Source: Escherichia phage vB_EcoM_G17. Taken from it: a DNA stretch of 64,000 nucleotides. Made by a program: the position numbers and the translations under genes. Shown here one piece after another: positions 4,632 to 43,265 of the stretch (its first letter is position 1; each line of letters opens with the position of its first letter). The notes beneath the pieces are model-generated. The model had not been told where the DNA came from. It ran no database searches and saw only the letters and a list, made by a program, of their open reading frames with translations. The DNA lies in sequence record MK327931.1. One strand, written 5' to 3'.

Positions 4632-5486
4632 TCAGTTATATTCGGTTTTTTCTGTGAAATTTGTTAGTATATCAACACTAAAACTTCGAATAACCTCAAT
4701 CCTGCTTGGCATGAAACGATGTTTATTTTTAATATACAACTCATCATCTTCAATAAAAGACGTAAAAATAAATGTCATATCTTCACGTGGAATTTGTAAA
4801 ATATCACACATTTCATTTGCCGATGCTACTGGTGAATCGTTGTAGTACTGAGAGTATGCACTAGATTGGCGACCGATTATAATAGAATTTCTGATTAGAA
4901 AATTACTACAGTACTGAAAATCTTTGTAGTACTTTTCAATAATGTAAGGCATAAGTGCTTCTTTCACGTCTTCATAACCATTAGTACTATCAATTGCTAT
5001 ACAGTAATCTTCACGTTCTTTTTTCTCATGATGGTAATCATAAACATACTCAAAGAATGAATTTTTATTTAATGAATCATTTAAACCAACTGACCCACTA
5101 TAGTATGATTTTCTATCATTCATTCGATCATCTGGGCATGATGCATACATAGAAGTGTCATGTGATGATGTACCAATATAAATTTTCTTAGTAATATGAT
5201 TATACGCTATGTAATCATAATCTTGAACTCCAGTCAGCATTAACTGGAACATTAAATCATCAGGAACATCAATTAACGGGTACTCAAACTTCGAATATCT
5301 ACTGCGGCAGAAGTTCTTTTCAAATGCTCGGTATGCGATAAAATCTTTTAGATTTTTACAAGATTCATGTTCATGAGCACTACTGCTACGTACATTGACA
5401 TTAGTCGATGTGCAATATCCATCCGAATCTTCGGTGAAGTTACCAGCATAATCCTTATTGTAGTCAACGATTAGATAAAGTTTCAT
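4632..5486 (-). CDS. hypothetical protein, divergent FamA-like
   Basis: ORF track; 284 aa; contains DDLMFQLMLTG resembling FamA core. Confidence 0.6.
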   Translation of the reverse strand: MKLYLIVDYNKDYAGNFTEDSDGYCTSTNVNVRSSSAHEHESCKNLKDFIAYRAFEKNFCRSRYSKFEYPLIDVPDDLMFQLMLTGVQDYDYIAYNHITKKIYIGTSSHDTSMYASCPDDRMNDRKSYYSGSVGLNDSLNKNSFFEYVYDYHHEKKEREDYCIAIDSTNGYEDVKEALMPYIIEKYYKDFQYCSNFLIRNSIIIGRQSSAYSQYYNDSPVASANEMCDILQIPREDMTFIFTSFIEDDELYIKNKHRFMPSRIEVIRSFSVDILTNFTEKTEYN

Positions 5487-5497
5487 ACATCTCCAGA

Positions 5498-5532
5498 CAA
5501 AAAAAAGGACGAGATAACAAATCCCGTCCTTT
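5498..5532 (-). terminator. intra-array rho-independent terminator
   Basis: Hairpin AAGGACG..CGTCCTT at 5505-5531 with U-run on minus strand, between 5539..5844 and 4632..5486. Confidence 0.6.
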
Positions 5533-5538
5533 GGTTTA

Positions 5539-5844
5539 TTAGTGACTTGCCCAGCAGTAAACAGGACGTAGATTTTCCATTGGATTTACTTCAGGCTTCA
5601 GTACTGTTACACGTACTTCATATGGAGTTCCATCTGCGTGATGGAATGTTTCATAATGAATACTTTCAATAAATGTTTCGTATTCTTCTTGTGAACGTGA
5701 ACGTACTGATGATGAATATTTCTTTTTAGAATCTGCTTTAAGTGTAACACTAACTAGTTCTGATTCCTCACCTTCTTCAAGTTTGTTGAAATCGAACTCT
5801 GGTACACCTTCAAACATATCAAATTTCATTCCATTGTCTTCCAT
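5539..5844 (-). CDS. hypothetical protein
   Basis: ORF track; AAAGGA SD upstream. Confidence 0.6.
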   Translation of the reverse strand: MEDNGMKFDMFEGVPEFDFNKLEEGEESELVSVTLKADSKKKYSSSVRSRSQEEYETFIESIHYETFHHADGTPYEVRVTVLKPEVNPMENLRPVYCWASH

Positions 5845-5893
5845 TTTTAAATTCCTTTTATATAATGTTAATTAGATATTTTTAATAAGCAGA

Positions 5894-6280
5894 TTAGATT
5901 GTGTCATACTGTAGTGTTCCGTGACGGAATTTTTCAAGTCGTGCTAGAACTTCTTTTCGTTCAACAATTTCTGGAACATCTTCTTGTAGTTGATCACAAA
6001 CTTCAACAATGAAGTCCCAATCACTCTCACAACTTTGTCGTACCGCCTCAATTGTTTTCCAATCAGTACTGATATCACCATCAGCATTTTGATATACAGG
6101 CCAAACTTTTCCATAATCAGCAATGGATTTGTCATTTAGAATACGAATGGCATTGAAAATCTGACCAGTACTGAAGTGTTTTGTATTCTTCATATCTTCT
6201 AAACAGCATAGCTTTGGCTCACCTTTTACTTCAATGAGTAAAACACCACCAATTGCTTTTAGGACTGAACTTGTATTCAT
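5894..6280 (-). CDS. hypothetical protein
   Basis: ORF track; GGAGA SD upstream. Confidence 0.6.
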   Translation of the reverse strand: MNTSSVLKAIGGVLLIEVKGEPKLCCLEDMKNTKHFSTGQIFNAIRILNDKSIADYGKVWPVYQNADGDISTDWKTIEAVRQSCESDWDFIVEVCDQLQEDVPEIVERKEVLARLEKFRHGTLQYDTI

Positions 6281-6295
6281 CTATATCTCCGTTAT

Positions 6296-6350
6296 CAAAA
6301 AAAAGATGTGAACATTATATCACAAGAATCTAATATGTTCACATTATTTT
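6296..6350. terminator. bidirectional hairpin terminator
   Basis: 10-bp stem ATGTGAACAT/ATGTTCACAT at 6306-6344 flanked by A-run and T-run. Confidence 0.55.
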
Positions 6351-6352
6351 CA

Positions 6353-8190: not shown

Positions 8191-8688
8191 TTAAGTCACT
8201 GCATTATACTTCTCTATAGCATTAGTAATATTTAATATAGCTTCAGGAACCATTTCTTTATTGTATTCACGTTTTAAATTTTCCATTTTCTTAATAATTT
8301 CCAAGAAAAATGGCAAAATACATGAAGTATCTGTAAAATTACATGAGTACAAAGTACTCATTTGAAATAATTCACCTGAATCAATATTAAGAGATTTGTA
8401 TTCCTTAACAATGTTTTCGTTTGTATTGAAAATATGAAATACTGTTCCCATGTGATGAAGATATACACCATTCTCATTTTGAATATGGCATGGTGTGATT
8501 ACAATAGCAGTGTTGTCAATATTATTTACTATTGATAAACGTAGACTATGTAAACCTAAAATAACAGTACAATCACTTGAACTGCTTTGAATTTGGTCAG
8601 CAGTTTGTGTAACACTTGTAATATTTTCCCCATCAAGACAACTCTTGATTTTATCAAATGAATTTTTCATTGATTTAGTTAGATACAT
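8191..8688 (-). CDS. hypothetical protein, FamA paralog
   Basis: FamA core GELFQMSTLY. Confidence 0.65.
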   Translation of the reverse strand: MYLTKSMKNSFDKIKSCLDGENITSVTQTADQIQSSSSDCTVILGLHSLRLSIVNNIDNTAIVITPCHIQNENGVYLHHMGTVFHIFNTNENIVKEYKSLNIDSGELFQMSTLYSCNFTDTSCILPFFLEIIKKMENLKREYNKEMVPEAILNITNAIEKYNAVT

Positions 8689-9092
8689 TTATGAACACCT
8701 TCGAAATATTTGATTAATGATTTTATCATATCGCTACTAATGCCATGTAAGTCAACACCTAAACACTCGTATTGAAAAAAATCAATATCCTCCAGTGTGT
8801 TTAGATCAATTTCCACCTTATCATGACCCAACGAATTCATAATAACGTTTTTATCATTAATTGTCAAGAAAGTTTTTTTATCTGAACCTAAAAAGATTTT
8901 TACATGTTTTTTTGGCATTACATCATAAGATAAAGATTGTGAACCATAAATGTATATGCCTTCCATTGAACCAATATCTATAAAATATAGACGAATCCCT
9001 TTGTGGTATTTTGACTCCTTAGTGATCGCCTCTATTAGTTCATCTGTGGTTGTTAACCTTGTTTCTTTCTTCTCTAAATTGCTCAAATGCAT
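8679..9092 (-). CDS. hypothetical protein, FamA paralog
   Basis: FamA core IDFFQYECLG. Confidence 0.6.
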   Translation of the reverse strand: MHLSNLEKKETRLTTTDELIEAITKESKYHKGIRLYFIDIGSMEGIYIYGSQSLSYDVMPKKHVKIFLGSDKKTFLTINDKNVIMNSLGHDKVEIDLNTLEDIDFFQYECLGVDLHGISSDMIKSLIKYFEGVHKCI

Positions 9093-9513
9093 AAAATAAT
9101 ACCTTGATCATTTGTAATGTTTCTGACATTACATCAGCAGAAAATTGAACATCAGTGTATTTTACCATAGTACTTTGAGTAAAGAAAGTAGCTTCAATAT
9201 CTTCAAGGTCAAATGGTTCATCAAATAAATTAGTACTGAACATATCAGTTTTTTTCTTATAAGTCAACATAAACTTAGCACTGTATCTCAATACAATTTC
9301 ATCTTTACTTACTAAAATTCGTGCAATGTTCTGTCTACCCAGTGTTGTAATGTTAACATTAAACGTATTCTTTCGTGCCTCAACAATATCAACGAAATAA
9401 CCATCACCTTGGTAAACGTTATGACGAACTTCTAATCCTTGTTGAACTGTATTGAACAGTGCGTCCTGGATAAAATAATTTGCAGTATCGATGTTTCCTA
9501 AAATATCTAACAT
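9040..9513 (-). CDS. hypothetical protein, FamA paralog
   Basis: FamA variant core ATFFTQSTMV; start approximate (overlaps neighbour). Confidence 0.55.
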   Translation of the reverse strand: MLDILGNIDTANYFIQDALFNTVQQGLEVRHNVYQGDGYFVDIVEARKNTFNVNITTLGRQNIARILVSKDEIVLRYSAKFMLTYKKKTDMFSTNLFDEPFDLEDIEATFFTQSTMVKYTDVQFSADVMSETLQMIKVLFYAFEQFREERNKVNNHR

Positions 9514-10043
9514 AACTTCTCCTTTATAGCTGTCATATTTAGAAGAAATTCAGTAAGCAATTCCTCCGTAACATGCTCTGTATACCAGAATATCACAATA
9601 TCTTTTGAAAGTCGTGTATTCATAAAAATATCTACTAACTCTTTGTAGAACTCTAGTGTTTCGAGATTTGTGAGAATTAACGAGTACTGAAAGAGTAATT
9701 CTTCCGTTAGATTAAATTCTGGATAAAGTAAATCATTGAACTCATGTGATGCAGTTTGAACTTTAATTTCTTTGAAGTTATTGGTTATACAACCGGAATA
9801 AATATTTCGGTGCAACTCTCTGTACAACGCAGCATAATCTATGAATTTTGCTTTAGGGTTAAAATCAAGAACACTTTCACCTTTATATGACAATCGGTGG
9901 AACGCCGAGAACATAGTCACTTCCCACGGTTGCTTAATATCTAGCTCAGTAATATCAATATTATTGGACAGAAGAACCGTAAAAATCTCACCAATCTTTA
10001 ATAGTAACTTAGTACGTGCCAGTGCTACCATCGGGTCAGTCAT
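9507..10043 (-). CDS. hypothetical protein, FamA paralog
   Basis: FamA core EELLFQYSLI. Confidence 0.65.
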   Translation of the reverse strand: MTDPMVALARTKLLLKIGEIFTVLLSNNIDITELDIKQPWEVTMFSAFHRLSYKGESVLDFNPKAKFIDYAALYRELHRNIYSGCITNNFKEIKVQTASHEFNDLLYPEFNLTEELLFQYSLILTNLETLEFYKELVDIFMNTRLSKDIVIFWYTEHVTEELLTEFLLNMTAIKEKLC

Positions 10044-10456
10044 TATACACCTTCATATTCATCAAGAAAATCTTCGATAATCATTTCAGCTTCATCCATA
10101 TGCATAGCATCAACTTCAATGATGCGAACTTTAGATGCATCCCAAATCATAAAGCTAGGAACATTATCAGGCTCGTAGTCATTTTTGTACTGAACAGCAT
10201 CATAACCTTGAGCAGTGCAATTCTCAATAAGTGAACGCCACTCATCATCACTGCCTAAATCTTCACACAGAAGCACGTTATCAACATCAACTTCTAAGGT
10301 ATGCAAGTATACTGTACATGCGTCTACTACGTTCAGTGGGCTTCTCAGCTTGCGTAATGCAGCTTCCAAAGCACTGTGTTTACCTCCCATATGAAGACCA
10401 CCATACGGGATATAAAAGTTATCAATTTTTACAGTACTCGCATGATACAGTTTCAT
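10043..10456 (-). CDS. hypothetical protein (not FamA)
   Basis: ORF track; acidic C-terminus; no family motif. Confidence 0.6.
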   Translation of the reverse strand: MKLYHASTVKIDNFYIPYGGLHMGGKHSALEAALRKLRSPLNVVDACTVYLHTLEVDVDNVLLCEDLGSDDEWRSLIENCTAQGYDAVQYKNDYEPDNVPSFMIWDASKVRIIEVDAMHMDEAEMIIEDFLDEYEGV

Positions 10457-10465
10457 ATTTCATTC

Positions 10466-11050
10466 CTATTTCAGTACTTTAGTCAATGCTTTCACAGCGG
10501 TTTCGAGTTGAGCATAGTCGTTAATTGTAAGGTAATGAATACCATGTGCCTTCATTTCAGCATCTATTTTACTATATAAATCAAACATGTCAAGGATATG
10601 ATTGTATGCATATGAAGTATTTGAAACACACAATTCTTGGAACAAACGTTCTTCCAAGTCATTCACAACTTCTCCATGAATGTCAAGTACTACACCATCT
10701 TTGTAAGTGTAGTACTCTTCACTCCACTCTTCAGAAAGTCGGAACAGTAACGGATTCCCGCCGAACACTTCCATGTCATAGGAATTTATCTCACTAAGTA
10801 GTGTTTCACCTGGTTCTGGTGTGAAGTCAAAATATGCGAGTGTTGTACCATCATAGTCCTTGAGTGATATACCAGTATGATTTAAGGTTACTTCACCATA
10901 ATTATTATTCTTGAACTTGATTTTGATATTAATCTCAATGTATTTTATTGTCTCATCATCACTGAAATTGTAATCAACTTTATACTTTTTCCAAAGAAGT
11001 TTGATATCTTTGAAGTACTTTAATTTACTTTCAATTTCTTTAAAGTCCAT
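10466..11050 (-). CDS. hypothetical protein, FamA paralog
   Basis: FamA core EERLFQELCV. Confidence 0.6.
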   Translation of the reverse strand: MDFKEIESKLKYFKDIKLLWKKYKVDYNFSDDETIKYIEINIKIKFKNNNYGEVTLNHTGISLKDYDGTTLAYFDFTPEPGETLLSEINSYDMEVFGGNPLLFRLSEEWSEEYYTYKDGVVLDIHGEVVNDLEERLFQELCVSNTSYAYNHILDMFDLYSKIDAEMKAHGIHYLTINDYAQLETAVKALTKVLK

Positions 11051-12190: not shown

Positions 12191-12251
12191 AAAATTCTCC
12201 TTTAGGACAATGTATCATACAAAAATACCAGAGTCAACCCCTGGTACGAAT

Positions 12252-36115: not shown

Positions 36116-36144
36116 AATTTTTACCCTATGATTAACGTTAGTGT

Positions 36145-36173: not shown

Positions 36174-36174
36174 G

Positions 36175-36579
36175 CTAGTATTGCACTGTTCTAATGAAAG
36201 TACCTTTACTCATGGATTTAAGCTTATGAACCTCTTCCTGCATACCCTTAATTAACCCTAAAGGTATAGGTAAATCATGTACTAAGCTGTACTGAAAGTA
36301 TTCTTCTTCAGATAAAGTACTAACATCTGGAACGCCAATTTTAGTTATATAATCTTGATGTGTTGACCAATAAATTATATCTTCAGTACTATTGTACTCC
36401 CCATATACTGAACAATATTGATGAATATCTTTCCTGTACCCTTGAGCAATAAAGAACTTATCTAATGCATTACCAGCATTAATAGAATTTACTTCGATTG
36501 TCACAGTACTTGAGCTTGTATAACTCTTAATATTATCAGTACTCTTAATACTCAACGATGTGTTCTTCATAATCACCAT
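36175..36579 (-). CDS. hypothetical protein, FamA paralog
   Basis: FamA core EEEYFQYSLVH. Confidence 0.65.
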   Translation of the reverse strand: MVIMKNTSLSIKSTDNIKSYTSSSTVTIEVNSINAGNALDKFFIAQGYRKDIHQYCSVYGEYNSTEDIIYWSTHQDYITKIGVPDVSTLSEEEYFQYSLVHDLPIPLGLIKGMQEEVHKLKSMSKGTFIRTVQY

Positions 36580-36889
36580 TAGGCTCCTGTTTAGATTCTT
36601 TCATTAGTACTATCATCTTATGTACTAATGGCATAGGGAACTCTAAATCCCATACTAATGATTCCTGGAAGTATTCCTCTGGTGATAAAGTACTTAAATC
36701 TTTAATATCAACGTGCTTGTATATTTTATTTTCGTAATTAACAAATGATATATATAAATCACTAACATAAGAATCATAGGTAATTGTGAATGGCTTACCC
36801 TTGTAATCCATTACATCTCTACATAGACTACTTTTGATATATGTATGTTCAAATGATTTATATACCTTGAGTTGTATATTAGTTTTCAT
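36545..36889 (-). CDS. hypothetical protein, FamA paralog
   Basis: FamA core PEEYFQESLVW. Confidence 0.65.
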   Translation of the reverse strand: MKTNIQLKVYKSFEHTYIKSSLCRDVMDYKGKPFTITYDSYVSDLYISFVNYENKIYKHVDIKDLSTLSPEEYFQESLVWDLEFPMPLVHKMIVLMKESKQEPNGDYEEHIVEY

Positions 36890-37154
36890 ATTTCTCTTTA
36901 TTAGCTTGTTTGGTTTTATAGTGAATTAAATCTATTAATGTAATCAAGTACAACGTCAAATAGTACTCTTGTTGATCTGTACCTAATGATACAAAGAACT
37001 TGTGCTCATAGATTAAAACCTGTTTCTCTTCAAATGGACATTTAATCCTCTGTATAGGCTTAAGTAAATGATAGTACTTATTAAATCTATGATACATTTC
37101 TAGTTCTGTCAGTACTTTCATATTAAACACATACTCCATTAGCTGTAGCATCAC
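36879..37154 (-). CDS. hypothetical small protein, FamB paralog
   Basis: FamB core SLGTDQQEYY. Confidence 0.6.
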   Translation of the reverse strand: MMLQLMEYVFNMKVLTELEMYHRFNKYYHLLKPIQRIKCPFEEKQVLIYEHKFFVSLGTDQQEYYLTLYLITLIDLIHYKTKQANKEKYEN

Positions 37155-37344
37155 GTAAAGCTGTCAAATACTTCTGTACGGCTTGCTCTTGCTTATTTGT
37201 ACCTAAAAGTATATACATCCATAATTCACTGTAATGTACATCTTGTGTATAAGGGTCATTGTAACTTTTTGATAATATAGCATCAAATTCAGATGCATGA
37301 ACCCTTGTGAACTTAAGAATATCTTGTTGTGTTATGATTCTCAT
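37123..37344 (-). CDS. hypothetical small protein, FamB paralog
   Basis: FamB core LLGTNKQEQA. Confidence 0.65.
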   Translation of the reverse strand: MRIITQQDILKFTRVHASEFDAILSKSYNDPYTQDVHYSELWMYILLGTNKQEQAVQKYLTALRDATANGVCV

Positions 37345-37556
37345 ATCTTTTCCTGTACAATCTGTATAAGAATACCTATGTGTGAATTAACAGTTCTCTC
37401 TTGATGCTGTGTTCCTAAGAGTGTCAGTACTATCATATCTGAACGCAAAAGATTTTTTTCAAGTTCACTTATATCAGTTCTTGAATCAAGTGCCATATAT
37501 TTGTGATTATTCTTCCTGAATAGTGCCAAGTACTCTTGGTTTGATATTATCTTCAT
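37341..37556 (-). CDS. hypothetical small protein, FamB paralog
   Basis: FamB core LLGTQHQERT. Confidence 0.65.
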   Translation of the reverse strand: MKIISNQEYLALFRKNNHKYMALDSRTDISELEKNLLRSDMIVLTLLGTQHQERTVNSHIGILIQIVQEKI

Positions 37557-37768
37557 AGTTTACTTTTAATTTCCATTAAAAGTGCTCTAATATGCTCATT
37601 GACAAATCGCTCTTGGGAATCTGTGTCTAGGGTGAGAAGCATTCTTAAATCGGAACCTCTGATGGTATATTCTAAATCATTCTTTGATTCTCGCATAAGT
37701 TTCTGAAAGGATGAGAAGTGTAATCCCATGAGTTCAATGTATTCTGCTGTTCCTAGTGGTTTTGGCAT
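37553..37768 (-). CDS. hypothetical small protein, FamB paralog
   Basis: FamB core TLDTDSQERF. Confidence 0.65.
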   Translation of the reverse strand: MPKPLGTAEYIELMGLHFSSFQKLMRESKNDLEYTIRGSDLRMLLTLDTDSQERFVNEHIRALLMEIKSKL

Positions 37769-37986
37769 TTTAGTTCAATAGCTCGTTTAAGTGTATTAAT
37801 ATAATCTTTAATGTCGTGTTCTTGATAGTTCGTTCCAAGGGTAGCTAGAACATAGACTTCATTTCTCTTAATAATTTTATCCATATCTGGTATATCTGAT
37901 GTGTTAATGACGAAGAGCTTCAAAAACAGTCCATTTATGATTGTTAGGTATTCTACATCGGTAATGATTTTCATTTGCATTTGCAT
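37753..37986 (-). CDS. hypothetical small protein, FamB paralog
   Basis: FamB core TLGTNYQEHD. Confidence 0.65.
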   Translation of the reverse strand: MQMQMKIITDVEYLTIINGLFLKLFVINTSDIPDMDKIIKRNEVYVLATLGTNYQEHDIKDYINTLKRAIELKCQNH

Positions 37987-38192
37987 TTTCTCAGTACTGA
38001 TTCTTTAAGTTCATTGATGTAGCACTCTACATATTCTTCTTGTAGGTTTGTTCCGATATGTAACAGTACTCTTAAATCTGCTCTCAGTACTTCTTTGTCA
38101 TCTTCATCTATATCAGACAGTGTTATGTTTAAGAATTTACTTGAACTCTCTATAAGTAATATTACTGAATCACCTTTGCTTAAAATTTTCAT
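37971..38192 (-). CDS. hypothetical small protein, FamB paralog
   Basis: FamB core HIGTNLQEEY. Confidence 0.65.
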   Translation of the reverse strand: MKILSKGDSVILLIESSSKFLNITLSDIDEDDKEVLRADLRVLLHIGTNLQEEYVECYINELKESVLRKCKCK

Positions 38193-38400
38193 AATCTCTT
38201 TTTGCTTTCCTCGCCAAAAGGTACATATACGATTCTTCGTATTGTGCTTGGTAGTTTGTGTTTAAGAGTCGAAACAACTTCTGTTCTGCTAGAACTAGTT
38301 GCTTATCTTCATAACAACGGTAGCGTATCAACTTTTTGTATTCGATGTTGATTACATCCATTACTATAAGCCCATGTTCATCATCTGTCAAGTGTTTCAT
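38170..38400 (-). CDS. hypothetical small protein, FamB paralog
   Basis: FamB core LLNTNYQAQY. Confidence 0.65.
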   Translation of the reverse strand: MKHLTDDEHGLIVMDVINIEYKKLIRYRCYEDKQLVLAEQKLFRLLNTNYQAQYEESYMYLLARKAKRDYENFKQR

Positions 38401-38639
38401 GCATTTTTTCTTTTTCTTATATGTTTAGTTAAAAGGTATATTAGTTTTCTGATGTATTCTTCTTGATAGTTTGTTCCTAAGAGTGCAAGAAGTTTTGCTT
38501 CAACTAAAGCTAGTTGTCGTTCTTCGAATGTGTGTTCCAGTATGTACTTGGGGTTTGATTTTTTAGCGTAAGCACTATTAGTCTTCATTACAATCTTATG
38601 ATATTCATTAGCTGTTAGGATTTTTAAATACTTGATCAT
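38397..38639 (-). CDS. hypothetical small protein, FamB paralog
   Basis: FamB core LLGTNYQEEY. Confidence 0.65.
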   Translation of the reverse strand: MIKYLKILTANEYHKIVMKTNSAYAKKSNPKYILEHTFEERQLALVEAKLLALLGTNYQEEYIRKLIYLLTKHIRKRKNA

Positions 38640-38859
38640 GTATCTTTTCCTTTATAGAGAATTTAAGATATCGAAGCATACTTTCAATGTAATACTCTTG
38701 TCTGTCAGTGCCAAGAAAGTACATGAGTTGAATGTATAAAACTTCTGCACTCCTTTCCGCTGGAGACTTGTTTGTGTCGTTTGGAAGTTGATTTGTATGT
38801 TTTCTTGATTTAATTAGTCGTTCTTTTAACTCATCGTCTGTTAAGTATTTCATTTTCAT
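38608..38859 (-). CDS. hypothetical small protein, FamB paralog
   Basis: FamB core FLGTDRQEYY. Confidence 0.65.
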   Translation of the reverse strand: MKMKYLTDDELKERLIKSRKHTNQLPNDTNKSPAERSAEVLYIQLMYFLGTDRQEYYIESMLRYLKFSIKEKIHDQVFKNPNS

Positions 38860-39085
38860 TTACTTTTTCCTTAATAGTGATTTTAAGATATCTAATCATA
38901 CGTGCAACATATTCCTCTTGTCTATCAGTTCCCAGAAGATATGGTAGTGATTGGAATAATACTTCTGCACTCCTTTCTGCTGGGGTTTGGTTTAGGTCAA
39001 TTGGACGTTTATTGGTATATCTCTTGGCACGAACTAATCTCTCGACGTATTCATTATAGGTTAAGTATATCATTTCATTTTGCAT
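38831..39085 (-). CDS. hypothetical small protein, FamB paralog
   Basis: FamB core LLGTDRQEEY. Confidence 0.65.
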   Translation of the reverse strand: MQNEMIYLTYNEYVERLVRAKRYTNKRPIDLNQTPAERSAEVLFQSLPYLLGTDRQEEYVARMIRYLKITIKEKVNENEILNRR

Positions 39086-39305
39086 TTACTTTTTCCTTAA
39101 TACTCATTATAAGATGTTCAATCATATTTTGAACCATAAATTCTTGTTTATCAGTTCCAAGAACGTATGGTAGCTTCTGAAACAATACATTTGCAGATAC
39201 TTCAGATATTGATTGATTTGGAACGAACTTAAGAGTAATGTTTTTGGTTTTTAACATCTTCTCTTGAAATTCTTCATTCGTTAAGTATATCATTTCATTT
39301 TGCAT
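39075..39305 (-). CDS. hypothetical small protein, FamB paralog
   Basis: FamB core VLGTDKQEFM. Confidence 0.65.
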   Translation of the reverse strand: MQNEMIYLTNEEFQEKMLKTKNITLKFVPNQSISEVSANVLFQKLPYVLGTDKQEFMVQNMIEHLIMSIKEKVNAK

Positions 39306-39521
39306 TTACATTCTCTCATATATATTTTGGGTTAAAAGGTCAATCCAGATTTCCACATATCGTTGTTGGTGTTGCGTCCCTAACAGTACACCCAACTTAG
39401 CTTCACACTCTAATAACAATCTGGTTTTGTATGGTAGACTTTGGAATCCTATAGTAGCATCTAATTTGGTAATTGCATAGTTGATTCGGATGAATCTTTC
39501 TTGCAATGTGATGTTGTTCAT
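39306..39521 (-). CDS. hypothetical small protein, FamB paralog
   Basis: FamB core LLGTQHQQRY. Confidence 0.65.
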   Translation of the reverse strand: MNNITLQERFIRINYAITKLDATIGFQSLPYKTRLLLECEAKLGVLLGTQHQQRYVEIWIDLLTQNIYERM

Positions 39522-39808
39522 TTCTTAGTACACCTCAGTGGTTGGGTCATTTGATAAAAGTACAGCTTACCTTTGATTTCCAGTAGTAACTCCGCGATTA
39601 AGCGATTTACTTCTGTATCTTGATAGTTTGTTCCTAAGAATACACCCATCTTTAACTCACGCATCATAATCATTTTCTTACTGTGTTGAATTTCTGGGTT
39701 GTGATAGATTGTATTACGTTTGTGCGTAATTTTTGTCATACGCTCGGTATATTCATCTTTACTTAAATTGATCATTTGCATGTTCATCAACCTCACATTT
39801 ATTTTCAA
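39518..39808 (-). CDS. hypothetical small protein, FamB paralog
   Basis: FamB core FLGTNYQDTE. Confidence 0.65.
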   Translation of the reverse strand: MKINVRLMNMQMINLSKDEYTERMTKITHKRNTIYHNPEIQHSKKMIMMRELKMGVFLGTNYQDTEVNRLIAELLLEIKGKLYFYQMTQPLRCTKK

Positions 39809-39810
39809 TA

Positions 39811-40077
39811 CTATTCTTTAGTTTGTAGATATAGTTTTCTTCCAATGTATCTCTTAAGTGCGATTATGTATTCATCTACATAATACTCCTGATAGTTTGT
39901 TCCTATGAATGCACCCACCTTTAACTCAAGTTTCATAATCATCTTATTTCCGTGTTTAATGACTTCTCCGTGATGGATTTCATTAAGTCCAGGTGCAATT
40001 TTCACCAGGCGTTCTTTATATTTTGCTTGAGATAATTTAATCATTTTCATGTTAATTACCCTTACATTTATTTTCAA
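39811..40077 (-). CDS. hypothetical small protein, FamB paralog
   Basis: FamB core FIGTNYQEYY. Confidence 0.65.
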   Translation of the reverse strand: MKINVRVINMKMIKLSQAKYKERLVKIAPGLNEIHHGEVIKHGNKMIMKLELKVGAFIGTNYQEYYVDEYIIALKRYIGRKLYLQTKE

Positions 40078-40282
40078 TACTATTCATGAGTTCTATAAGA
40101 TAGTTTTCTACCTTACCTTCCTGATAGTTAGTCCCTAGGAAGTTGCACAACACGGCTTCTATGATTTTGATTTTCCTGATATCAGGCTTCAATCTTTTGT
40201 TATTGAATATTTGAATCCTTATATCTCTGGATGCATTTAAACGTTTTTGATATTCATGGTAAGTTAAATGAATCATTTTCAT
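40052..40282 (-). CDS. hypothetical small protein, FamB paralog
   Basis: FamB core FLGTNYQEGK. Confidence 0.65.
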   Translation of the reverse strand: MKMIHLTYHEYQKRLNASRDIRIQIFNNKRLKPDIRKIKIIEAVLCNFLGTNYQEGKVENYLIELMNSIENKCKGN

Positions 40283-40497
40283 TTACGTTTAACCTCTCGC
40301 TGGAGGGCATCAATTAACATCAGTACAGCATTCTCTTGATAGTTTGTTCCTAAGACTGAAAGCATCTTTATCTCATTTACTAAAATCAACTTCTTTGAGG
40401 GTTCAATAATGTGACTATCATAAACGGCCTTACGTGCTGGATAAGTTTTCGCCAGTATAACATAAAATTCGTCTTTACTTAAATTAATCATTTGCAT
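40279..40497 (-). CDS. hypothetical small protein, FamB paralog
   Basis: FamB core VLGTNYQENA. Confidence 0.65.
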   Translation of the reverse strand: MQMINLSKDEFYVILAKTYPARKAVYDSHIIEPSKKLILVNEIKMLSVLGTNYQENAVLMLIDALQREVKRK

Positions 40498-40706
40498 TTA
40501 CTTTTAACCTCTTTCTGTAGAGCGTCAATCCATAGATCTACATACATTTGTTGATAGTTTGTGCCTAAGAGTGCACCTACATAGAGTTCAGTTACTAGTG
40601 CGTGCTTAAGGTTAGCTTGGATGCTCTTATCGCTTGATATCATTCTCCTTCTGCTTCCACATGTTTTCAGGAGTCTGATGTATTCAAAGCCTTGTAAATT
40701 TCTCAT
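40488..40706 (-). CDS. hypothetical small protein, FamB paralog
   Basis: FamB core LLGTNYQQMY. Confidence 0.65.
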   Translation of the reverse strand: MRNLQGFEYIRLLKTCGSRRRMISSDKSIQANLKHALVTELYVGALLGTNYQQMYVDLWIDALQKEVKSKCK

Positions 40707-40918
40707 ATTTTGGATACCACCTTGTTACGTAAGGAACTTAATAATACGTCAGTGTAGATGTTTTGATAGTTTGTCCCTACGAATACACCCAACTTCATTT
40801 CAGCTATTATAACACATTTGTCCTCTTGTGCAATAGATTTGTTTAACACAATACTATACACTTTTGATTTGATAGTTTGTAACCTCCAATGATACTGATA
40901 CTCATTAAGGATTATCAT
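40703..40918 (-). CDS. hypothetical small protein, FamB paralog
   Basis: FamB core FVGTNYQNIY. Confidence 0.65.
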   Translation of the reverse strand: MIILNEYQYHWRLQTIKSKVYSIVLNKSIAQEDKCVIIAEMKLGVFVGTNYQNIYTDVLLSSLRNKVVSKI

Positions 40919-41165
40919 TCTCTTTCCTCCAGATTTCGGTTCTCATGTGTTGGCAGTGTGCATCAATATATTGCTCTATCGATCTGGCGATTGCTGTTTT
41001 ATCAGTGCCTGTCATCAGTACAAGCATCTCGGCCTCACAGTGAAGTAAACGCATGATATCATAGGGTAATATTTCAGATACCGTGTCATAGTGTTTCTGT
41101 GCCAGTGTCTGCAATAGTTTACAATACATTTTGTGATTTAGTCTTTGTCGCATTGTTTCTTCCAT
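40905..41165 (-). CDS. hypothetical small protein, divergent FamB paralog
   Basis: Variant core LMTGTDKTAI. Confidence 0.55.
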   Translation of the reverse strand: MEETMRQRLNHKMYCKLLQTLAQKHYDTVSEILPYDIMRLLHCEAEMLVLMTGTDKTAIARSIEQYIDAHCQHMRTEIWRKENDNP

Positions 41166-41410
41166 TCTCTTCTGGCTTGGCGGGTTTTATCTGATATTTC
41201 GTTTCTCAATGCAGAGATATATCGTAGAGTGAACAGTTCTTGATAGTTAGTCCCTATGAATTTATTAAGATATACATCAGCGTTGACGATATCAGCTTCA
41301 CGGGAATTATAAAGTTTATTGTTAGTGCGAAGGGTGTTTAGAAGAGAGAAGAGGGCAGTCTGATACTCAGTGCTTGATAAAGTTTTCATATTTTTCCACA
41401 ATTCGTTCAT
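41138..41410 (-). CDS. hypothetical small protein, FamB paralog
   Basis: FamB core FIGTNYQELF. Confidence 0.65.
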   Translation of the reverse strand: MNELWKNMKTLSSTEYQTALFSLLNTLRTNNKLYNSREADIVNADVYLNKFIGTNYQELFTLRYISALRNEISDKTRQARREWKKQCDKD

Positions 41411-41624
41411 TTAGTTTTATCTGTATAAGATCCATTAGTTGTTCAAGATAATCGGTACAATATTTCTCTTGATATTGGGTTCCCACAAAGTACAGCAACC
41501 ATAGCTCATGAACTTTAACTTTCATCTCGTTCCATGAAAGTGCATCGTCATCGTAGATTACTCTTGCTTCTGGGGTGAGCTTTCGAATTCTAAGTGAATA
41601 TTCATCGTCCGTCAAGTGTTTCAT
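41367..41624 (-). CDS. hypothetical small protein, FamB paralog
   Basis: FamB core FVGTQYQEKY. Confidence 0.65.
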   Translation of the reverse strand: MKHLTDDEYSLRIRKLTPEARVIYDDDALSWNEMKVKVHELWLLYFVGTQYQEKYCTDYLEQLMDLIQIKLNERIVEKYENFIKH

Positions 41625-41779
41625 TTACATTTATCCCTTATTAGATTTGTGAGTGCAACTATGTGTTCATGGATATAAAAATTTTGATGAGAAGTTCCAA
41701 GAAAGTACAGCATCCATCCCTCACTCTGCTCGACTTCTAGTTTAGTATCGAGTTGGTCAGATATGTTAATGAAAACCAT
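41621..41779 (-). CDS. hypothetical small protein, FamB paralog (52 aa)
   Basis: Below ORF-track cutoff; reading by eye gives MVFINISDQ...FLGTSHQNFY; fills gap in array with ATGA/TAATG coupling. Confidence 0.5.
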   Translation of the reverse strand: MVFINISDQLDTKLEVEQSEGWMLYFLGTSHQNFYIHEHIVALTNLIRDKCK

Positions 41780-42036
41780 TAGTTCTTTTCCTTTCTTTCT
41801 ATTTGTTTCATAAGAACATCGATATACTCACCCGCAAACCTATTCTGATACTGCGTCCCCATGAATTCCAACATCCATACTTCAGCAACCTTTTCTTCAA
41901 TTTCAGTCCATTGTAAGTACATCATAGTGAAGTAAATGGTGTTCTCTTTTTTTCTGGCACTCTTAGCACGGGCCTCGTATTCAAAGTTATTAATGATGTT
42001 CATTACATTTGTCCATAATGTAATTCTTGAGTGCAA
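41779..42036 (-). CDS. hypothetical small protein, FamB paralog
   Basis: FamB core FMGTQYQNRF. Confidence 0.65.
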   Translation of the reverse strand: MHSRITLWTNVMNIINNFEYEARAKSARKKENTIYFTMMYLQWTEIEEKVAEVWMLEFMGTQYQNRFAGEYIDVLMKQIERKEKN

Positions 42037-42217
42037 CTATGTGTGCAATAACATACTCTTCCTGGAAGTTCGTCCCCAGTACAGCCAACATGCGTACATC
42101 GGTGGTGTTTATCTTGTGTTCCAATCGAGTTAAACCTTTTATTTGTAAAAGGGTATCGTATTTGTTTAATGCATCAATGATAATTCTCATCTTCTCAATA
42201 TTACTTAAATGTTTCAT
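41990..42217 (-). CDS. hypothetical small protein, FamB paralog
   Basis: FamB core VLGTNFQEEY. Confidence 0.65.
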   Translation of the reverse strand: MKHLSNIEKMRIIIDALNKYDTLLQIKGLTRLEHKINTTDVRMLAVLGTNFQEEYVIAHIVALKNYIMDKCNEHH

Positions 42218-42426
42218 AGTTTACTCTTAATGTAGTTCTGAAGTTCAATTAAGTATTTCCCTACATAATACTCCTGAAAGTCTGTATCCAAAAATGCACC
42301 CAAAAGTAAATCCTTCTCCATTGCCCTTGATAAGTTAAGGTCTGCATTTGAAAGGTATATAAGTAATATTTCAGTCTGGACAGAATTAAAACGTTTCTTA
42401 TATTCTTCAGGTGTTAATATAATCAT
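42214..42426 (-). CDS. hypothetical small protein, FamB paralog
   Basis: FamB core FLDTDFQEYY. Confidence 0.65.
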   Translation of the reverse strand: MIILTPEEYKKRFNSVQTEILLIYLSNADLNLSRAMEKDLLLGAFLDTDFQEYYVGKYLIELQNYIKSKL

Positions 42427-42638
42427 AATTTGCTCCTGATGTATTTCTCAAGAGATGACAAATACTTTTCCTCATAATACTCCTGATAGTCTGTTCCCAA
42501 GAATGCACCCATAAGTATTTCATTTTCCAATACCTCGGCTAAGTTTAAATCAGACGTCTCTTCGTATATTATGAGGATTTCAAGTTGTCTGGCAGCGATG
42601 CGTTCAGTATATTGATATGAGTTTTCTATAATAATCAT
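42423..42638 (-). CDS. hypothetical small protein, FamB paralog
   Basis: FamB core FLGTDYQEYY. Confidence 0.65.
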   Translation of the reverse strand: MIIIENSYQYTERIAARQLEILIIYEETSDLNLAEVLENEILMGAFLGTDYQEYYEEKYLSSLEKYIRSKL

Positions 42639-42844
42639 ATTTTACTCTTAATATCTTCTATTAAAAATCGAATCCATTCTTCAACATAATCTTCCTGATG
42701 GTTTGTGTTCAGTACAGCCAACATGCGGATCTCTGCTCTTGCAACTTCAATTTCAGTTTTAGGCAGGTCTTTGCTGATATCCACCATTAAGTCCATGTAT
42801 TTCAAGATAAGACCGTATGATTGGGTTCGTGTTATAGTTTTCAT
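42635..42844 (-). CDS. hypothetical small protein, FamB paralog
   Basis: FamB core VLNTNHQEDY. Confidence 0.65.
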   Translation of the reverse strand: MKTITRTQSYGLILKYMDLMVDISKDLPKTEIEVARAEIRMLAVLNTNHQEDYVEEWIRFLIEDIKSKI

Positions 42845-43041
42845 TGTTTCCTCGTGGACAATATTTTATTTTTCAATGTATCCATATATTGCCACACCCA
42901 TCTACCCTGATAGTTTGTTCCCAATGTAATCAAAAGGTATAACTCCATTCGTTCTACGTGTGTGTCTGTGTTGTAAATCTTTACGTAGTTTTTACGTAAC
43001 AGTGATTGATATTCTTCTTTATTTAAAATACGCATTTTCAT
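42841..43041 (-). CDS. hypothetical small protein, FamB paralog
   Basis: FamB core TLGTNYQGRW. Confidence 0.65.
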   Translation of the reverse strand: MKMRILNKEEYQSLLRKNYVKIYNTDTHVERMELYLLITLGTNYQGRWVWQYMDTLKNKILSTRKQ

Positions 43042-43265
43042 AGTTTACTCGTTATATCTTCAATTAAATACCAAATCCAATCGTTGACATACCTTTCCTG
43101 AAAGTTAGTTCCAATGAATAGTGCCATAATTAATTCACGCTTATAGGCAATACCACGGTCATGGGACTTATACATTATCATAGCCATGTTATTGATAAGT
43201 CTTTCGTGGTGCTGTTCTTTAGTTAAAATACGCATAGGGACTCCCTTAAAATTAATATCAATCAT
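43038..43265 (-). CDS. hypothetical small protein, FamB paralog (first gene of array)
   Basis: FamB core FIGTNFQERY; AAGGGAG SD before internal ATG (MRILTKEQ). Confidence 0.6.
   Translation of the reverse strand: MIDINFKGVPMRILTKEQHHERLINNMAMIMYKSHDRGIAYKRELIMALFIGTNFQERYVNDWIWYLIEDITSKL

What the first reader, a model, noticed from the sequence alone, without database searches (positions are those of the whole stretch)
4632..43265. Compositional split between the paralog arrays and the small-gene cluster
The 39-kb array region looks markedly more AT-rich (by eye about 30 percent GC) than the 43-62 kb small-gene region (about 40 percent), and its promoters and terminators are sparser and weaker. 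Such a split within one genome may reflect different origin, different expression timing or mutational bias from repeated recombination.
Basis: seen in the sequence. Interest (0 to 1): 0.45.

Follow-up and report, generated by a model that had tools for sequence, protein, structure and literature searches.

The report
GC step marks phage terminal repeat
The jump in base composition is real and falls exactly at the inner edge of this giant E. coli phage's 20.7-kb terminal repeat, a block of about 50 small, separately promoted, probably first-expressed genes whose DNA looks more like the host's than the rest of the phage does.

Summary
The window is 100% identical to Escherichia phage Sharanji (350 kb, Asteriusvirus). 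Measured GC is 32.25% for 4632-43265 and 38.3% for 43266-62000. The gap is 6.0 points, not about 10, but is highly significant, and the best changepoint is at 43,300.

The "small-gene cluster" is the phage's direct terminal repeat (DTR), window 43333-64000. Two relatives with annotated DTRs map both DTR ends onto these coordinates. The resulting length, 20,668 bp, equals the published Sharanji DTR length.

The DTR is the GC maximum of the whole genome and its only segment without CpG depletion. It holds 11 of the genome's 31 perfect sigma-70 promoters, in cassettes that recur at least 24 times (promoter, 5' hairpin, ribosome-binding site). Its codon use leans towards E. coli and away from codons read by the phage's own tRNAs.

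The arrays are two lineage-specific paralog families. They form the genome's GC minimum because of amino-acid composition (low GC1 and GC2), not because of AT bias at synonymous sites.

The same DTR shift occurs in relatives and in T5, SPO1 and phage K, and is reversed in 0305phi8-36. The best reading is expression timing and host adaptation. Recent foreign origin and recombination bias are poorly supported. This is an ordinary genome architecture with a tidy, apparently unreported compositional signature.

The parts
43333..64000 (-). Direct terminal repeat (DTR) of phage Sharanji, 20,668 bp. It holds about 50 small genes, all read on the minus strand, inward from the physical genome end at 64000. 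It is the genome's GC maximum (38.38%) and its only segment without CpG depletion.
   Evidence: vB_Ec-M-J annotates its DTR as 1-21525. Its position 1 aligns to window 64000 and its position 21525 to window 43333/43334. The fEgEco12 DTR is 20,993 bp and was confirmed by restriction digests. Its position 1 aligns to window 64000 and its position 20993 to window 43333. The implied length of 20,668 bp equals the PhageTerm DTR length published for Sharanji.
43266..43332 (-). First 67 bp of unique sequence inside the DTR boundary. It carries a promoter-like site (TTGACT-N16-TAAAAT, 43293 to 43266) directly upstream of the first gene of the 72-aa array.
   Evidence: Promoter scan; alignment of the boundary region with vB_Ec-M-J.
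36879..43265 (-). Tandem array of paralog family H1. The family has 31 members of 52-96 aa, with three more members at 22133-22520 and 35124-35390. The genes are packed with overlapping stops and starts. GC1/2/3 is 0.40/0.26/0.34 and AT skew is about -0.2.
8191..36889 (-). Array of paralog family H2, with at least 35 members of 54-207 aa interleaved with singleton ORFs. Coding density is 91%. GC1/2/3 is 0.40/0.28/0.29.
44200..62414 (-). At least 24 copies of an intergenic cassette of about 95 nt, one in front of most DTR genes. Read on the gene strand it runs: A-rich stretch + AGTACT, -35 (TTGACA or TTGCAA), N16, TATAAT, about 12 nt, hairpin GGGGAGAA-N3/4-TTCTCCCC, Shine-Dalgarno, ATG. A representative copy is at 46563-46640.
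   Evidence: Direct-repeat families D1-D8. The hairpin is predicted in 6 of 6 cassettes folded, at -13.6 to -16.5 kcal/mol. The promoters are listed.
45089..60583 (-). Ten perfect 12/12 sigma-70 consensus promoters on the gene strand: 60583-60556, 53561-53534, 52968-52941, 51565-51538, 50595-50568, 49984-49957, 49554-49526, 47134-47107, 46640-46613 and 45116-45089.
   Evidence: Genome-wide there are 31 perfect sites, all on this strand, and 11 of them lie in the DTR, which is 6% of the genome. Sites of at least 11/12 number 104 on this strand, against about 15 expected from shuffles.
44790..54126 (-). Four copies of a terminator-like hairpin that contains a -35 box and is followed by an extended -10: AAAGGGATTGACTCCGGTCAGTCCCTTT-GCTATTATAT. 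The copies are at 44790-44817, 47542-47569, 50811-50838 and 54099-54126.
   Evidence: The terminator and promoter scans overlap at these sites. Repeat family D9 covers them.
47581..48222 (-). DTR gene with weak similarity to protein kinases.
   Evidence: Pfam Pkinase match at E = 0.003, below the curated cut-off. Homologs in relatives are annotated as Ser/Thr kinases. It has a homolog in the fENko-Kae01 DTR at 7e-33.
52193..52450 (-). DTR gene for a DksA-like zinc-finger protein, a possible RNA-polymerase modulator.
   Evidence: phrog_54 match at 4.9e-19. It is 73% identical to a gene in the fENko-Kae01 DTR.
62373..64000 (.). Non-coding outer 1.6 kb of the DTR, ending at the physical genome end. 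It has many CAGTACTG motifs and GGCTAGA/T-like iterons at about 63100-63240.
   Evidence: Sequence read directly and the ORF list. vB_Ec-M-J 1-1565 and fEgEco12 1-1200 align here at 96-97% identity.

Best explanation
The compositional step is the inner boundary of the phage's 20,668-bp direct terminal repeat (window 43333-64000). It results from two independent departures from the genome norm (34.1% GC) that happen to lie next to each other.

(a) The DTR. It is a compartment of about 50 small genes. Most have their own near-consensus host-type (sigma-70) promoter, a 5' hairpin and a ribosome-binding site, and all are read inward from the physical end of the DNA. I infer that these are the first genes expressed, by unmodified host RNA polymerase and the host tRNA pool. 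I further infer that selection therefore keeps their coding sequence host-like. GC3 is 0.37 against 0.235 in the bulk genome. CpG is at host-like levels in all three codon contexts. Host-common codons (CTG, CCG, GCG, CGC, GGC, ATC) are enriched, and codons served by the phage's own tRNAs are used least.

(b) The arrays. The two downstream paralog arrays are long, tightly packed, promoter-poor gene trains. Their proteins are poor in Ala, Gly and Pro and rich in Ile, Leu, Tyr, Lys and Phe, which lowers GC1 and GC2. They use the codons cognate to phage tRNAs the most.

Shown here: the GC step, its coincidence with the DTR edge, the promoter density, the codon and dinucleotide signatures, and their conservation in relatives and in other phages with long terminal repeats. 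Inferred: that the Sharanji DTR genes are immediate-early, and that early expression causes the host-like composition.
For: DTR identity rests on three independent mappings that all give 43333-64000 = 20,668 bp.

Outlier status: the DTR is the GC maximum of the genome, about 4 SD above other windows. The only four 5-kb bins (of 70) with CpG rho >= 0.95 are the DTR bins.

Promoters: 10 perfect sigma-70 sites in the DTR against 0 in the adjacent 20 kb, and 11 of the genome's 31 perfect sites. The cassette recurs at least 24 times.

Decomposition by codon position (GC1/2/3): DTR 0.470/0.345/0.372; arrays 0.40/0.26-0.28/0.29-0.34; bulk genome 0.452/0.339/0.235. The GC3 difference is not a gene-length effect: among genes of 120 aa or less, GC3 is 0.368 in the DTR and 0.274 elsewhere.

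Host likeness: RSCU correlation with E. coli is +0.38 to +0.44 for the DTR and -0.33 to +0.17 for the other classes. Median CAI is 0.405 for the DTR against 0.27-0.33 (p 1e-6 to 1e-4). CpG rho at the codon boundary is 1.03 in the DTR (CI 0.95-1.11) and 1.00-1.06 in E. coli, against 0.60-0.73 elsewhere in the phage.

Phage-tRNA codons (ACA, AGA, GGA, TCA) make up 19.7% of Thr/Arg/Gly/Ser codons in the DTR, 34-40% in the arrays and 26-30% elsewhere.

The composition is maintained rather than a relic. 22 of 55 DTR ORFs have homologs in the fENko-Kae01 DTR and 10 in the CBB DTR, none outside those DTRs in the DNA sampled. The conserved genes have the same GC3 and CpG as the rest.

The same shift is seen elsewhere. 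DTR GC3 is above neighbouring sequence in vB_Ec-M-J, fENko-Kae01, CBB, T5, SPO1 and phage K. It is below neighbouring sequence in 0305phi8-36, whose host is AT-richer than the phage.

Experimental precedent: the PA5oct DTR genes are early by RNA-seq. The T5 terminal repeat is the first-step-transfer DNA that carries the pre-early genes (annotation).
Against: No expression data exist for Sharanji, so early timing is inferred from promoters and from relatives.

The enrichment of GC-ending codons correlates with average E. coli usage (rho 0.54, p = 0.002) but not significantly with the usage of ribosomal-protein genes (rho 0.27). The most enriched codon, CGG (21-fold), is not translationally optimal in E. 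coli. The signal therefore looks like general host-likeness rather than classical translational optimisation.

The CpG difference at the codon boundary is not explained by tRNA matching.

DTR intergenic GC is also raised (0.356 against 0.314). Part of the shift therefore lies outside coding sequence, and GC-rich hairpins may account for it.

The second promoter-rich early-looking region (record 56-106 kb) has only intermediate GC3 (0.27).

The cross-phage comparison covers few independent lineages, and host GC values for the Bacillus and Staphylococcus hosts come from memory.
Confidence: 0.6

Rival explanations
1. Gene flux. The DTR is a hyperplastic region whose promoter cassettes mediate continual exchange of small early genes with other virulent coliphages. 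Its composition would then be that of a shared gene pool closer to 39-44% GC, not the result of selection in place.
For: Pieces of DTR genes occur at 80-90% nucleotide identity in unrelated coliphages (Phapecoctavirus/Justusliebigvirus and rV5-like Vequintavirus). The DTR query matched 196 phage records, against 35, all from close relatives, for the arrays. Close relatives cover the DTR only patchily (PBECO4 26%, CMSTMSU 38%) but cover the arrays at 83-100%. The dinucleotide signature distance (delta* x1000) from the DTR to the rest of its own genome is 100-143. That is as large as the distance to E. coli (108) and larger than the distance to T5 (75). The cassettes resemble the PeSL shuffling elements of T4-type phages.
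Against: 40% of DTR ORFs are conserved inside the DTRs of relatives that are only 30-70% identical in protein sequence, where synonymous sites must be saturated. Yet these genes have the same GC3 (0.383 against 0.363) and CpG (1.22 against 1.20) as the non-conserved ones. [quoted passage not shown] In the rows examined, cross-family matches cover only 0-4% of the DTR per record.
Confidence: 0.2
2. Recombination-associated GC bias. The terminal repeat and the DNA near the ends recombine most (circularisation, concatemer formation, end invasion). GC-biased repair of heteroduplex DNA would then raise GC there.
For: GC3 falls gradually with distance from the physical left end: 0.372, 0.366, 0.331, 0.315, 0.282, 0.271 and on down to about 0.20. 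DTR intergenic GC is also raised. The DTR is GC-richer than neighbouring sequence in six phages whose hosts are GC-richer than the phage.
Against: In 0305phi8-36 the terminal repeat is AT-richer than its neighbours (40.4% against 43.1%; GC3 0.347 against 0.374), which is the opposite of a universal GC bias. The enrichment is codon-specific, with none for GAG, AAG, AGG or TTG. Intergenic CpG in the DTR (0.80) is no higher than in the arrays (0.83). GC1 and GC2 change as a sharp step at the boundary, not as a gradient. The two DTR copies in one virion are identical, so heteroduplex mismatches need mixed infections (inference).
Confidence: 0.1
3. The arrays would be AT-rich because repeated recombination or duplication among the paralogs imposes an AT-ward mutational bias.
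For: The array region is essentially the lowest-GC stretch of its size in the genome, and it consists of two large paralog families.
Against: Synonymous sites in the arrays are GC-richer than in the bulk genome (GC3 0.288-0.340 against 0.235). The deficit lies in GC1 and GC2 and tracks amino-acid content: Ala+Gly+Pro is 8.3-8.9% against 14.1%. The paralogs are only 23-56% identical, so the duplications are old. The dinucleotide signature of the arrays is close to the rest of the genome (delta* x1000 of 42-86).
Confidence: 0.04

Closest known systems
Terminal repeat of coliphage T5 (first-step-transfer DNA with the pre-early genes)
   Same: It is a long direct terminal repeat at the DNA end. 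It carries small genes behind strong host-type promoters, ahead of the rest of the genome. In T5 the repeat is also richer in GC3 and CpG than the next 35 kb: GC3 0.394 against 0.330, and CpG rho 1.31 against 0.76.
   Different: The T5 repeat is 10.2 kb, with divergent transcription and a defined injection-stop signal. Two-step DNA transfer is not known for Sharanji. No homology between the gene sets was detected.
Host-takeover module in the 13.2-kb terminal redundancy of Bacillus phage SPO1
   Same: It is a cluster of about 24 small genes, each with its own strong early promoter, lying inside the terminal repeat. The repeat is GC-richer than the rest of the genome (42.2% against 39.0-39.3%; GC3 0.426 against 0.365-0.385).
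   Different: SPO1 belongs to a different phage family and infects a Gram-positive host. Host shut-off functions are demonstrated for several SPO1 genes (annotation), but for none here.
DTR of Pseudomonas jumbo phage PA5oct and of RaK2-like phages (CBB, fENko-Kae01, fEgEco12, vB_Ec-M-J)
   Same: These belong to the same broad phage group and have the same layout. Their DTRs are 20-39 kb and full of small genes of unknown function. PA5oct DTR genes are highly transcribed early (PMC7318152). CBB has RpoD-like promoters in and near its DTR (PMC5259590). 22 Sharanji DTR ORFs have homologs in the fENko-Kae01 DTR and 10 in the CBB DTR, and the compositional shift is the same.
   Different: In the passages of those papers that I searched, I found no mention of the compositional or CpG discontinuity or of the repeated promoter-hairpin cassette. 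The 72-aa paralog array next to the DTR was not found in the sampled fENko-Kae01 or CBB DNA.
PeSL (promoter-early stem-loop) cassettes of T4-type phage hyperplastic regions (Arbiol et al. 2010, PMC2839356; PMC4122927)
   Same: Both are repeated intergenic cassettes made of an AT-rich stretch, a consensus sigma-70 promoter, a G-run/C-run stem-loop, a Shine-Dalgarno sequence and a start codon, placed in front of small non-conserved genes. A subclass with the stem-loop downstream of the -10 box is described for PeSLs. Four copies here have the hairpin overlapping the -35 box, which is another described subclass.
   Different: In most copies here the hairpin has no U-tract and lies in the 5' untranslated region. 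It is therefore more likely a 5' mRNA element than a terminator. Shuffling and mini-circle formation were not tested. These cassettes lie in a terminal repeat, not in internal hyperplastic regions.
Time-of-expression codon-usage classes in phages (T4: Cowe and Sharp 1991, from my own knowledge; survey by Mioduser et al. 2017, PMC5683454)
   Same: Early and late genes of one phage differ in synonymous codon use. This is partly linked to the host tRNA pool and to GC content. The present case fits that pattern: DTR genes avoid phage-tRNA codons.
   Different: Here the contrast is spatially sharp. It coincides with a structural feature, the DTR edge, and it includes a dinucleotide (CpG) contrast at codon boundaries that tRNA matching does not explain.

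Membership tests
Direct terminal repeat of Asteriusvirus / RaK2-like jumbo phages | The sequence is homologous to DTRs determined in relatives, and both repeat boundaries map onto it. | tested here: met
   vB_Ec-M-J positions 1 and 21525 map to window 64000 and 43333/4. fEgEco12 positions 1 and 20993 map to window 64000 and 43333.
Direct terminal repeat of Asteriusvirus / RaK2-like jumbo phages | The length agrees with the DTR reported for this very phage. | tested here: met
   The mapped interval is 20,668 bp, identical to the PhageTerm value in PMC11895373.
Direct terminal repeat of Asteriusvirus / RaK2-like jumbo phages | Read depth is doubled, or physical ends are found at these positions in virion DNA. 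| not testable with these tools
   No sequencing reads are available. For fEgEco12 the ends were confirmed by restriction digests.
Terminal-repeat-borne immediate-early / host-takeover gene cluster (T5 pre-early, SPO1 host-takeover type) | Small genes inside the terminal repeat, each with a strong host-RNA-polymerase promoter. | tested here: met
   About 50 genes of mean length 88 aa, with coding density 74%. About 35 near-consensus promoters lie on the gene strand in 20.7 kb.
Terminal-repeat-borne immediate-early / host-takeover gene cluster (T5 pre-early, SPO1 host-takeover type) | The genes are transcribed in the first minutes of infection, independently of phage protein synthesis. | not testable with these tools
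   The only evidence is RNA-seq from the relative PA5oct.
Terminal-repeat-borne immediate-early / host-takeover gene cluster (T5 pre-early, SPO1 host-takeover type) | The gene products shut off or redirect host functions. | tested here: inconclusive
   There are only two hints, a weak kinase-like match and a DksA-like zinc finger. The remaining genes fall in PHROGs of unknown function.
Terminal-repeat-borne immediate-early / host-takeover gene cluster (T5 pre-early, SPO1 host-takeover type) | Two-step DNA injection with an injection-stop signal (specific to T5). | not tested
   No homolog of the T5 region was detected. This needs an experiment.
PeSL regulatory cassettes (T4-type phages) | A repeated intergenic motif with a sigma-70 consensus promoter, an AT-rich upstream stretch and a G-run/C-run stem-loop, ending in a Shine-Dalgarno sequence and a start codon. 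| tested here: met
   Repeat families D1-D8, the fold predictions and the PeSL definition read.
PeSL regulatory cassettes (T4-type phages) | The stem-loop acts as a terminator or attenuator. | tested here: inconclusive
   The main hairpin lacks a U-tract and lies after the -10 box. Only the four copies of AAAGGGATTGACTCCGGTCAGTCCCTTT score as terminator-like.
PeSL regulatory cassettes (T4-type phages) | Recombination between cassettes causes the gene insertions, deletions and replacements seen between close relatives, and produces mini-circles. | not tested
   Patchy coverage of the DTR by relatives is compatible with this, but breakpoints were not mapped.
Recently acquired foreign island | GC content and dinucleotide signature are atypical for the genome. 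| tested here: met
   The DTR is 4.3 GC points above the genome mean. Its delta* x1000 to other regions is 100-143, against 15-86 among those regions.
Recently acquired foreign island | The region is absent from, or not conserved in, related genomes, and its higher-order oligonucleotide pattern is foreign. | tested here: not met
   40% of DTR ORFs are conserved in the DTRs of distant relatives. The tetranucleotide correlation with the phage's own genome is 0.76-0.83, against 0.27 with E. coli. No tRNA gene is present in the window.

The most novel reading that the evidence does not exclude
Long direct terminal repeats of virulent phages may form a compositionally insulated, host-mimicking compartment. 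GC3, CpG and codon-pair context would be shifted towards the host, and away from codons read by phage tRNAs. This state would be actively maintained over deep evolutionary time and would recur in unrelated lineages (RaK2-like jumbo phages, T5, SPO1 and phage K, and 0305phi8-36 with the sign reversed). If so, the edge of a long DTR and the first-expressed gene set could be predicted from sequence composition alone. The bulk-genome CpG depletion that spares the DTR would then point to a DNA-level or codon-pair-level constraint that applies only to genes expressed after host takeover.
Probability: 0.3. Interest if true: 0.6.

Novelty: new member of a known kind. Interest (0 to 1): 0.4.

Why it matters
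The result places the published but unlocated 20.7-kb terminal repeat of phage Sharanji on its sequence. The GenBank record is not oriented on the physical ends, starts inside a paralog array, and carries a 77-bp overlap between its ends.

It singles out about 50 genes as the likely immediate-early, host-takeover set of a little-studied group of giant coliphages. It also provides the promoter-hairpin cassette that drives them.

More generally, it suggests that a composition scan (GC3 plus CpG) can locate long terminal repeats and early-gene compartments in jumbo-phage assemblies, which are usually deposited in arbitrary circular permutations. It also gives a simple comparative test, the direction of the shift relative to host GC, that separates host adaptation from recombination-driven GC bias.

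Tried and rejected
Searches that gave nothing useful:
- Pfam searches of array proteins found nothing, and PHROG matches were all of unknown function.
- The afdb50 fold library was unavailable.
- There are no tRNA genes and no Rfam families in the window.
- The Sharanji paper and the 2026 jumbo-phage review say nothing about where the DTR lies, about the paralog arrays, or about composition.

Explanations considered and rejected:
- Gene-length artefact for GC3: length-matched small genes elsewhere have GC3 0.274, against 0.368 in the DTR.
- GC-rich intergenic elements as the cause: coding GC alone is 39.8% against 32.1%.
- AT-ward mutation in the arrays: their GC3 is above that of the bulk genome.
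- Recent foreign origin of the DTR.

Full report
IDENTITY OF THE WINDOW
The window is 100% identical to Escherichia phage Sharanji (OR545507.1; 350,079 bp; genus Asteriusvirus; the 121Q/PBECO4 group of RaK2-like jumbo phages). Window position equals record position plus 27,555. The window runs across the arbitrary start of the GenBank record, whose two ends overlap by 77 bp, which I read as an assembly circularisation artefact. All real genes in the window lie on the minus strand.

THE OBSERVATION
GC is 32.25% for 4632-43265 and 38.31% for 43266-62000. The gap is 6.0 points. The difference is significant: 1-kb windows give Mann-Whitney p = 1.4e-9, and a changepoint scan puts the break at 43,300 with a log-likelihood gain of 113.

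I assembled the whole genome from the public record. Its GC is 34.10%, which matches the paper. The highest-GC window of 20,668 bp in the genome starts 23 bp from the start of the small-gene block. It has 38.4% GC, against 33.8 +/- 1.1% for windows elsewhere. The array region is essentially the lowest-GC stretch of its size in the genome.

The promoter contrast is also real. The GC-rich block has ten perfect TTGACA-N16/17-TATAAT sites, all on the gene strand. The adjacent 20 kb has none, and its total count is at chance level. The terminator contrast is weak once base composition is allowed for.

WHAT THE GC-RICH BLOCK IS
It is the phage's direct terminal repeat (DTR). The Sharanji paper reports a 20,668-bp DTR from PhageTerm but gives no position for it.
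- The relative vB_Ec-M-J annotates its DTR as 1-21525. Its position 1 aligns to window 64000, and its position 21525 to window 43333/43334.
- The relative fEgEco12 has a 20,993-bp DTR confirmed by restriction digests. Its position 1 also aligns to window 64000, and its position 20993 to window 43333.
- The interval 43333-64000 is exactly 20,668 bp.

Genes are read inward from the physical end at 64000. The order is the DTR, then the 72-aa array, then the larger-gene array. The distant relative fENko-Kae01 has the same layout: a DTR of small, spaced genes followed by a tight array of 170-200-aa genes.

ANATOMY OF THE DTR
The DTR has about 50 ORFs with a mean length of 88 aa. Only 74% of it is coding, against 91-93% in the arrays.

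The intergenic gaps hold a cassette of about 95 nt that is present at least 24 times. On the gene strand the cassette reads as follows:
- an A-rich stretch with AGTACT;
- a -35 box (TTGACA or TTGCAA), 16 nt, then TATAAT;
- about 12 nt, then a hairpin GGGGAGAA-N3/4-TTCTCCCC;
- a Shine-Dalgarno sequence and ATG.

The hairpin is predicted in all six copies that I folded. Four further sites have a terminator-like hairpin that contains the -35 box.

Genome-wide, sites matching the sigma-70 consensus at 11/12 or better number 104 on the gene strand, against about 15 expected from shuffles and 12 on the other strand. Eleven of the 31 perfect sites fall in the DTR, which is 6% of the genome.

This architecture matches the published description of PeSL cassettes in T4-type phages. 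The difference is that the main hairpin here lacks a U-tract and would lie in the 5' untranslated region.

Functional hints are few: a weak kinase-like gene at 47581-48222 and a DksA-like zinc finger at 52193-52450. The outer 1.6 kb of the DTR is non-coding and contains iterons.

ANATOMY OF THE ARRAYS
There are two paralog families.
- H1 has 31 genes of about 72 aa, with its tandem run at 36879-43265. The predicted structure is a 4-helix bundle with pLDDT 97.
- H2 has at least 35 genes of 54-207 aa, spread over 8191-36889. The predicted structure has pLDDT 90.

Neither family has a Pfam match or an informative structural match. H2-like folds appear only in RaK2-like phages.

WHERE THE GC DIFFERENCE COMES FROM
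GC by codon position (GC1/GC2/GC3) is as follows:
- DTR: 0.470 / 0.345 / 0.372
- 72-aa array: 0.402 / 0.264 / 0.340
- large array: 0.398 / 0.278 / 0.288
- rest of the genome: 0.452 / 0.339 / 0.235

The split is thus the sum of two departures from the genome norm in opposite directions. The DTR differs from the bulk genome almost only at synonymous sites (+14 points of GC3). The arrays differ at positions 1 and 2, because their proteins have 8.3-8.9% Ala+Gly+Pro against about 14% elsewhere. The arrays' GC3 is actually above that of the bulk genome.

GC3 declines gradually with distance from the physical left end: 0.37, 0.37, 0.33, 0.32, 0.28, 0.27 and on down to about 0.20 in the structural genes. 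GC1 and GC2, by contrast, drop as a step at the DTR edge. The GC3 difference is not a gene-length effect.

HOST LIKENESS
- Codon usage. The RSCU of DTR genes correlates positively with that of E. coli genes (+0.38 to +0.44). The other classes range from -0.33 to +0.17. CAI is higher in the DTR.
- Which codons. The enrichment of GC-ending codons is codon-specific. It is strong for CGG, CTG, GCG, CCG, GGC, TGC, CGC, GCC and ATC, and absent for GAG, AAG, AGG and TTG. It follows average E. coli usage (rho 0.54) rather than the usage of ribosomal-protein genes.
- Phage-tRNA codons. The codons cognate to the phage's own tRNAs (ACA, AGA, GGA, TCA) are used least in the DTR (19.7% of Thr/Arg/Gly/Ser codons) and most in the arrays (34-40%).
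- Dinucleotide signature. The delta* x1000 distance of the DTR from every other part of its genome is 100-143. Distances among the other parts are 15-86. The main contrasts are CpG 1.07 against 0.69-0.78 and TpG/CpA 1.02 against 1.17-1.28.
- CpG at the codon boundary. CpG rho is 1.03 in the DTR (bootstrap 0.95-1.11) and 1.00-1.06 in E. coli genes. It is 0.60-0.73 in every other phage gene class.
- Whole-genome view. The only four 5-kb bins of the genome with CpG rho of at least 0.95 are the DTR bins.
- Intergenic CpG is not raised in the DTR.

ORIGIN VERSUS MAINTENANCE
Some DTR gene pieces occur at 80-90% nucleotide identity in unrelated coliphages, and close relatives cover the DTR patchily. 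There is therefore some gene flux.

However, 22 of 55 DTR ORFs have protein homologs in the fENko-Kae01 DTR and 10 in the CBB DTR. None has a homolog outside those DTRs in the DNA sampled. These conserved genes have the same GC3 and CpG as the non-conserved ones. The Markov-normalised tetranucleotide pattern of the DTR still resembles the rest of the genome (0.76-0.83, against 0.27 with E. coli). The composition is therefore maintained in place. It is not a leftover of recent acquisition.

OTHER PHAGES
The terminal repeat is shifted in the same sense in several other phages (values are repeat against neighbouring sequence):
- vB_Ec-M-J: GC 38.6% against 32.0%
- fENko-Kae01: GC 37.3% against 33.4%
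- CBB: GC 37.8% against 35.2%
- T5: GC3 0.394 against 0.330; CpG rho 1.31 against 0.76
- SPO1: GC 42.2% against 39.0-39.3%
- phage K, at GC3 only: 0.252 against 0.20-0.22

In 0305phi8-36 the repeat is AT-richer than its neighbours (40.4% against 43.1%). The host of 0305phi8-36 is AT-richer than the phage; that host value comes from my own knowledge and was not measured here. This direction-dependent pattern favours adaptation towards the host over a universal GC-biased repair process. The number of independent lineages is small, however.

Experimentally, PA5oct DTR genes are early by RNA-seq. The T5 repeat is the first-step-transfer DNA that carries the pre-early genes (annotation).

VERDICT
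"Different origin" holds only in the weak sense of ongoing gene exchange. "Mutational bias from repeated recombination" is not supported.

The underlying structure, a long terminal repeat full of individually promoted small early genes, is a known kind of phage architecture. New here, as far as the literature I could search shows, are three things:
- the placement of the DTR on the Sharanji sequence;
- the sharp GC3/CpG discontinuity at its edge;
- the PeSL-like cassette family.

Early timing in Sharanji, and the causal link between early expression and composition, remain inferences.

Noticed in passing
[not shown]
   Followed up: partly
window 36879-43265 (also 22133-22520 and 35124-35390): Family H1 has 31 tandem genes of about 72 aa. 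The predicted structure is a 4-helix bundle (pLDDT 97) with the conserved motif L-GT(N/D)xQ-E. The stretch has a strong AT skew (about -0.2) and the highest use of AGA, GGA and ACA codons. No homolog was found in the sampled DNA of fENko-Kae01 or CBB.
   Followed up: partly
whole genome; densest in window 43333-64000: The palindrome AGTACT occurs 902 times in the genome, against about 118 expected, and 132 times in the DTR, against 6.7 expected. It often flanks -35 boxes (CAGTACTG...TTGTCAA, AAAAAGTACTTGCAA). It may be a binding or modification site.
   Followed up: partly
window 58511-58588, 62635-62734 and 62872-62950: Three copies of a conserved 54-79-nt element each sit just downstream of a plus-strand sigma-70-like promoter, that is, transcribed against the direction of the genes. 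They are candidate small RNAs. There is no Rfam match.
   Followed up: no
window 62373-64000: The outer 1.6 kb of the terminal repeat is non-coding. It contains GGCTAGA/T-like iterons at about 63100-63240 and many CAGTACTG motifs. This is a candidate packaging or end-recognition region.
   Followed up: no
window 27556-27632: The GenBank record OR545507 starts here, inside the paralog array. Its first 77 bases repeat its last 77, which looks like an assembler circularisation overlap. The deposited record is therefore not oriented on the physical ends.
   Followed up: yes
whole genome outside window 43333-64000: The bulk genome is CpG-depleted (median rho 0.73) with an excess of TpG and CpA, including at codon boundaries. 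The cause is unknown. The phage encodes a C5-type ('HaeIII-like') methylase (record 107182-108042), but no link was tested.
   Followed up: partly
physical map, 0-100 kb from window 64000 inward: GC3 falls smoothly with distance from the left physical end (0.37 down to about 0.23 over 90 kb), whereas GC1 and GC2 change stepwise. A positional or temporal gradient could explain this.
   Followed up: partly
L001 40817-50000 and L003 1-4854 (record 40817-54854, just beyond the window): There is another paralog array here: about 12 plus-strand genes of about 380 aa, one of them annotated as an RCC1-repeat protein. It lies next to the right-hand end of the unique sequence.
   Followed up: no
phage records MG065689.1 and MG065677.1 (hits H42 and H62): Records named 'Campylobacter phage A110a' and 'A13b' share 86-88% nucleotide identity with Sharanji DTR genes. 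In size and matches they resemble rV5-type or phAPEC8-type coliphages, so their host label may be wrong.
   Followed up: no
window 44790-44817, 47542-47569, 50811-50838 and 54099-54126: A 12-bp-stem hairpin, AAAGGGATTGACTCCGGTCAGTCCCTTT, scores as a terminator. It also contains a -35 box that is followed, at the correct spacing, by an extended -10. It is a composite terminator-promoter element.
   Followed up: partly
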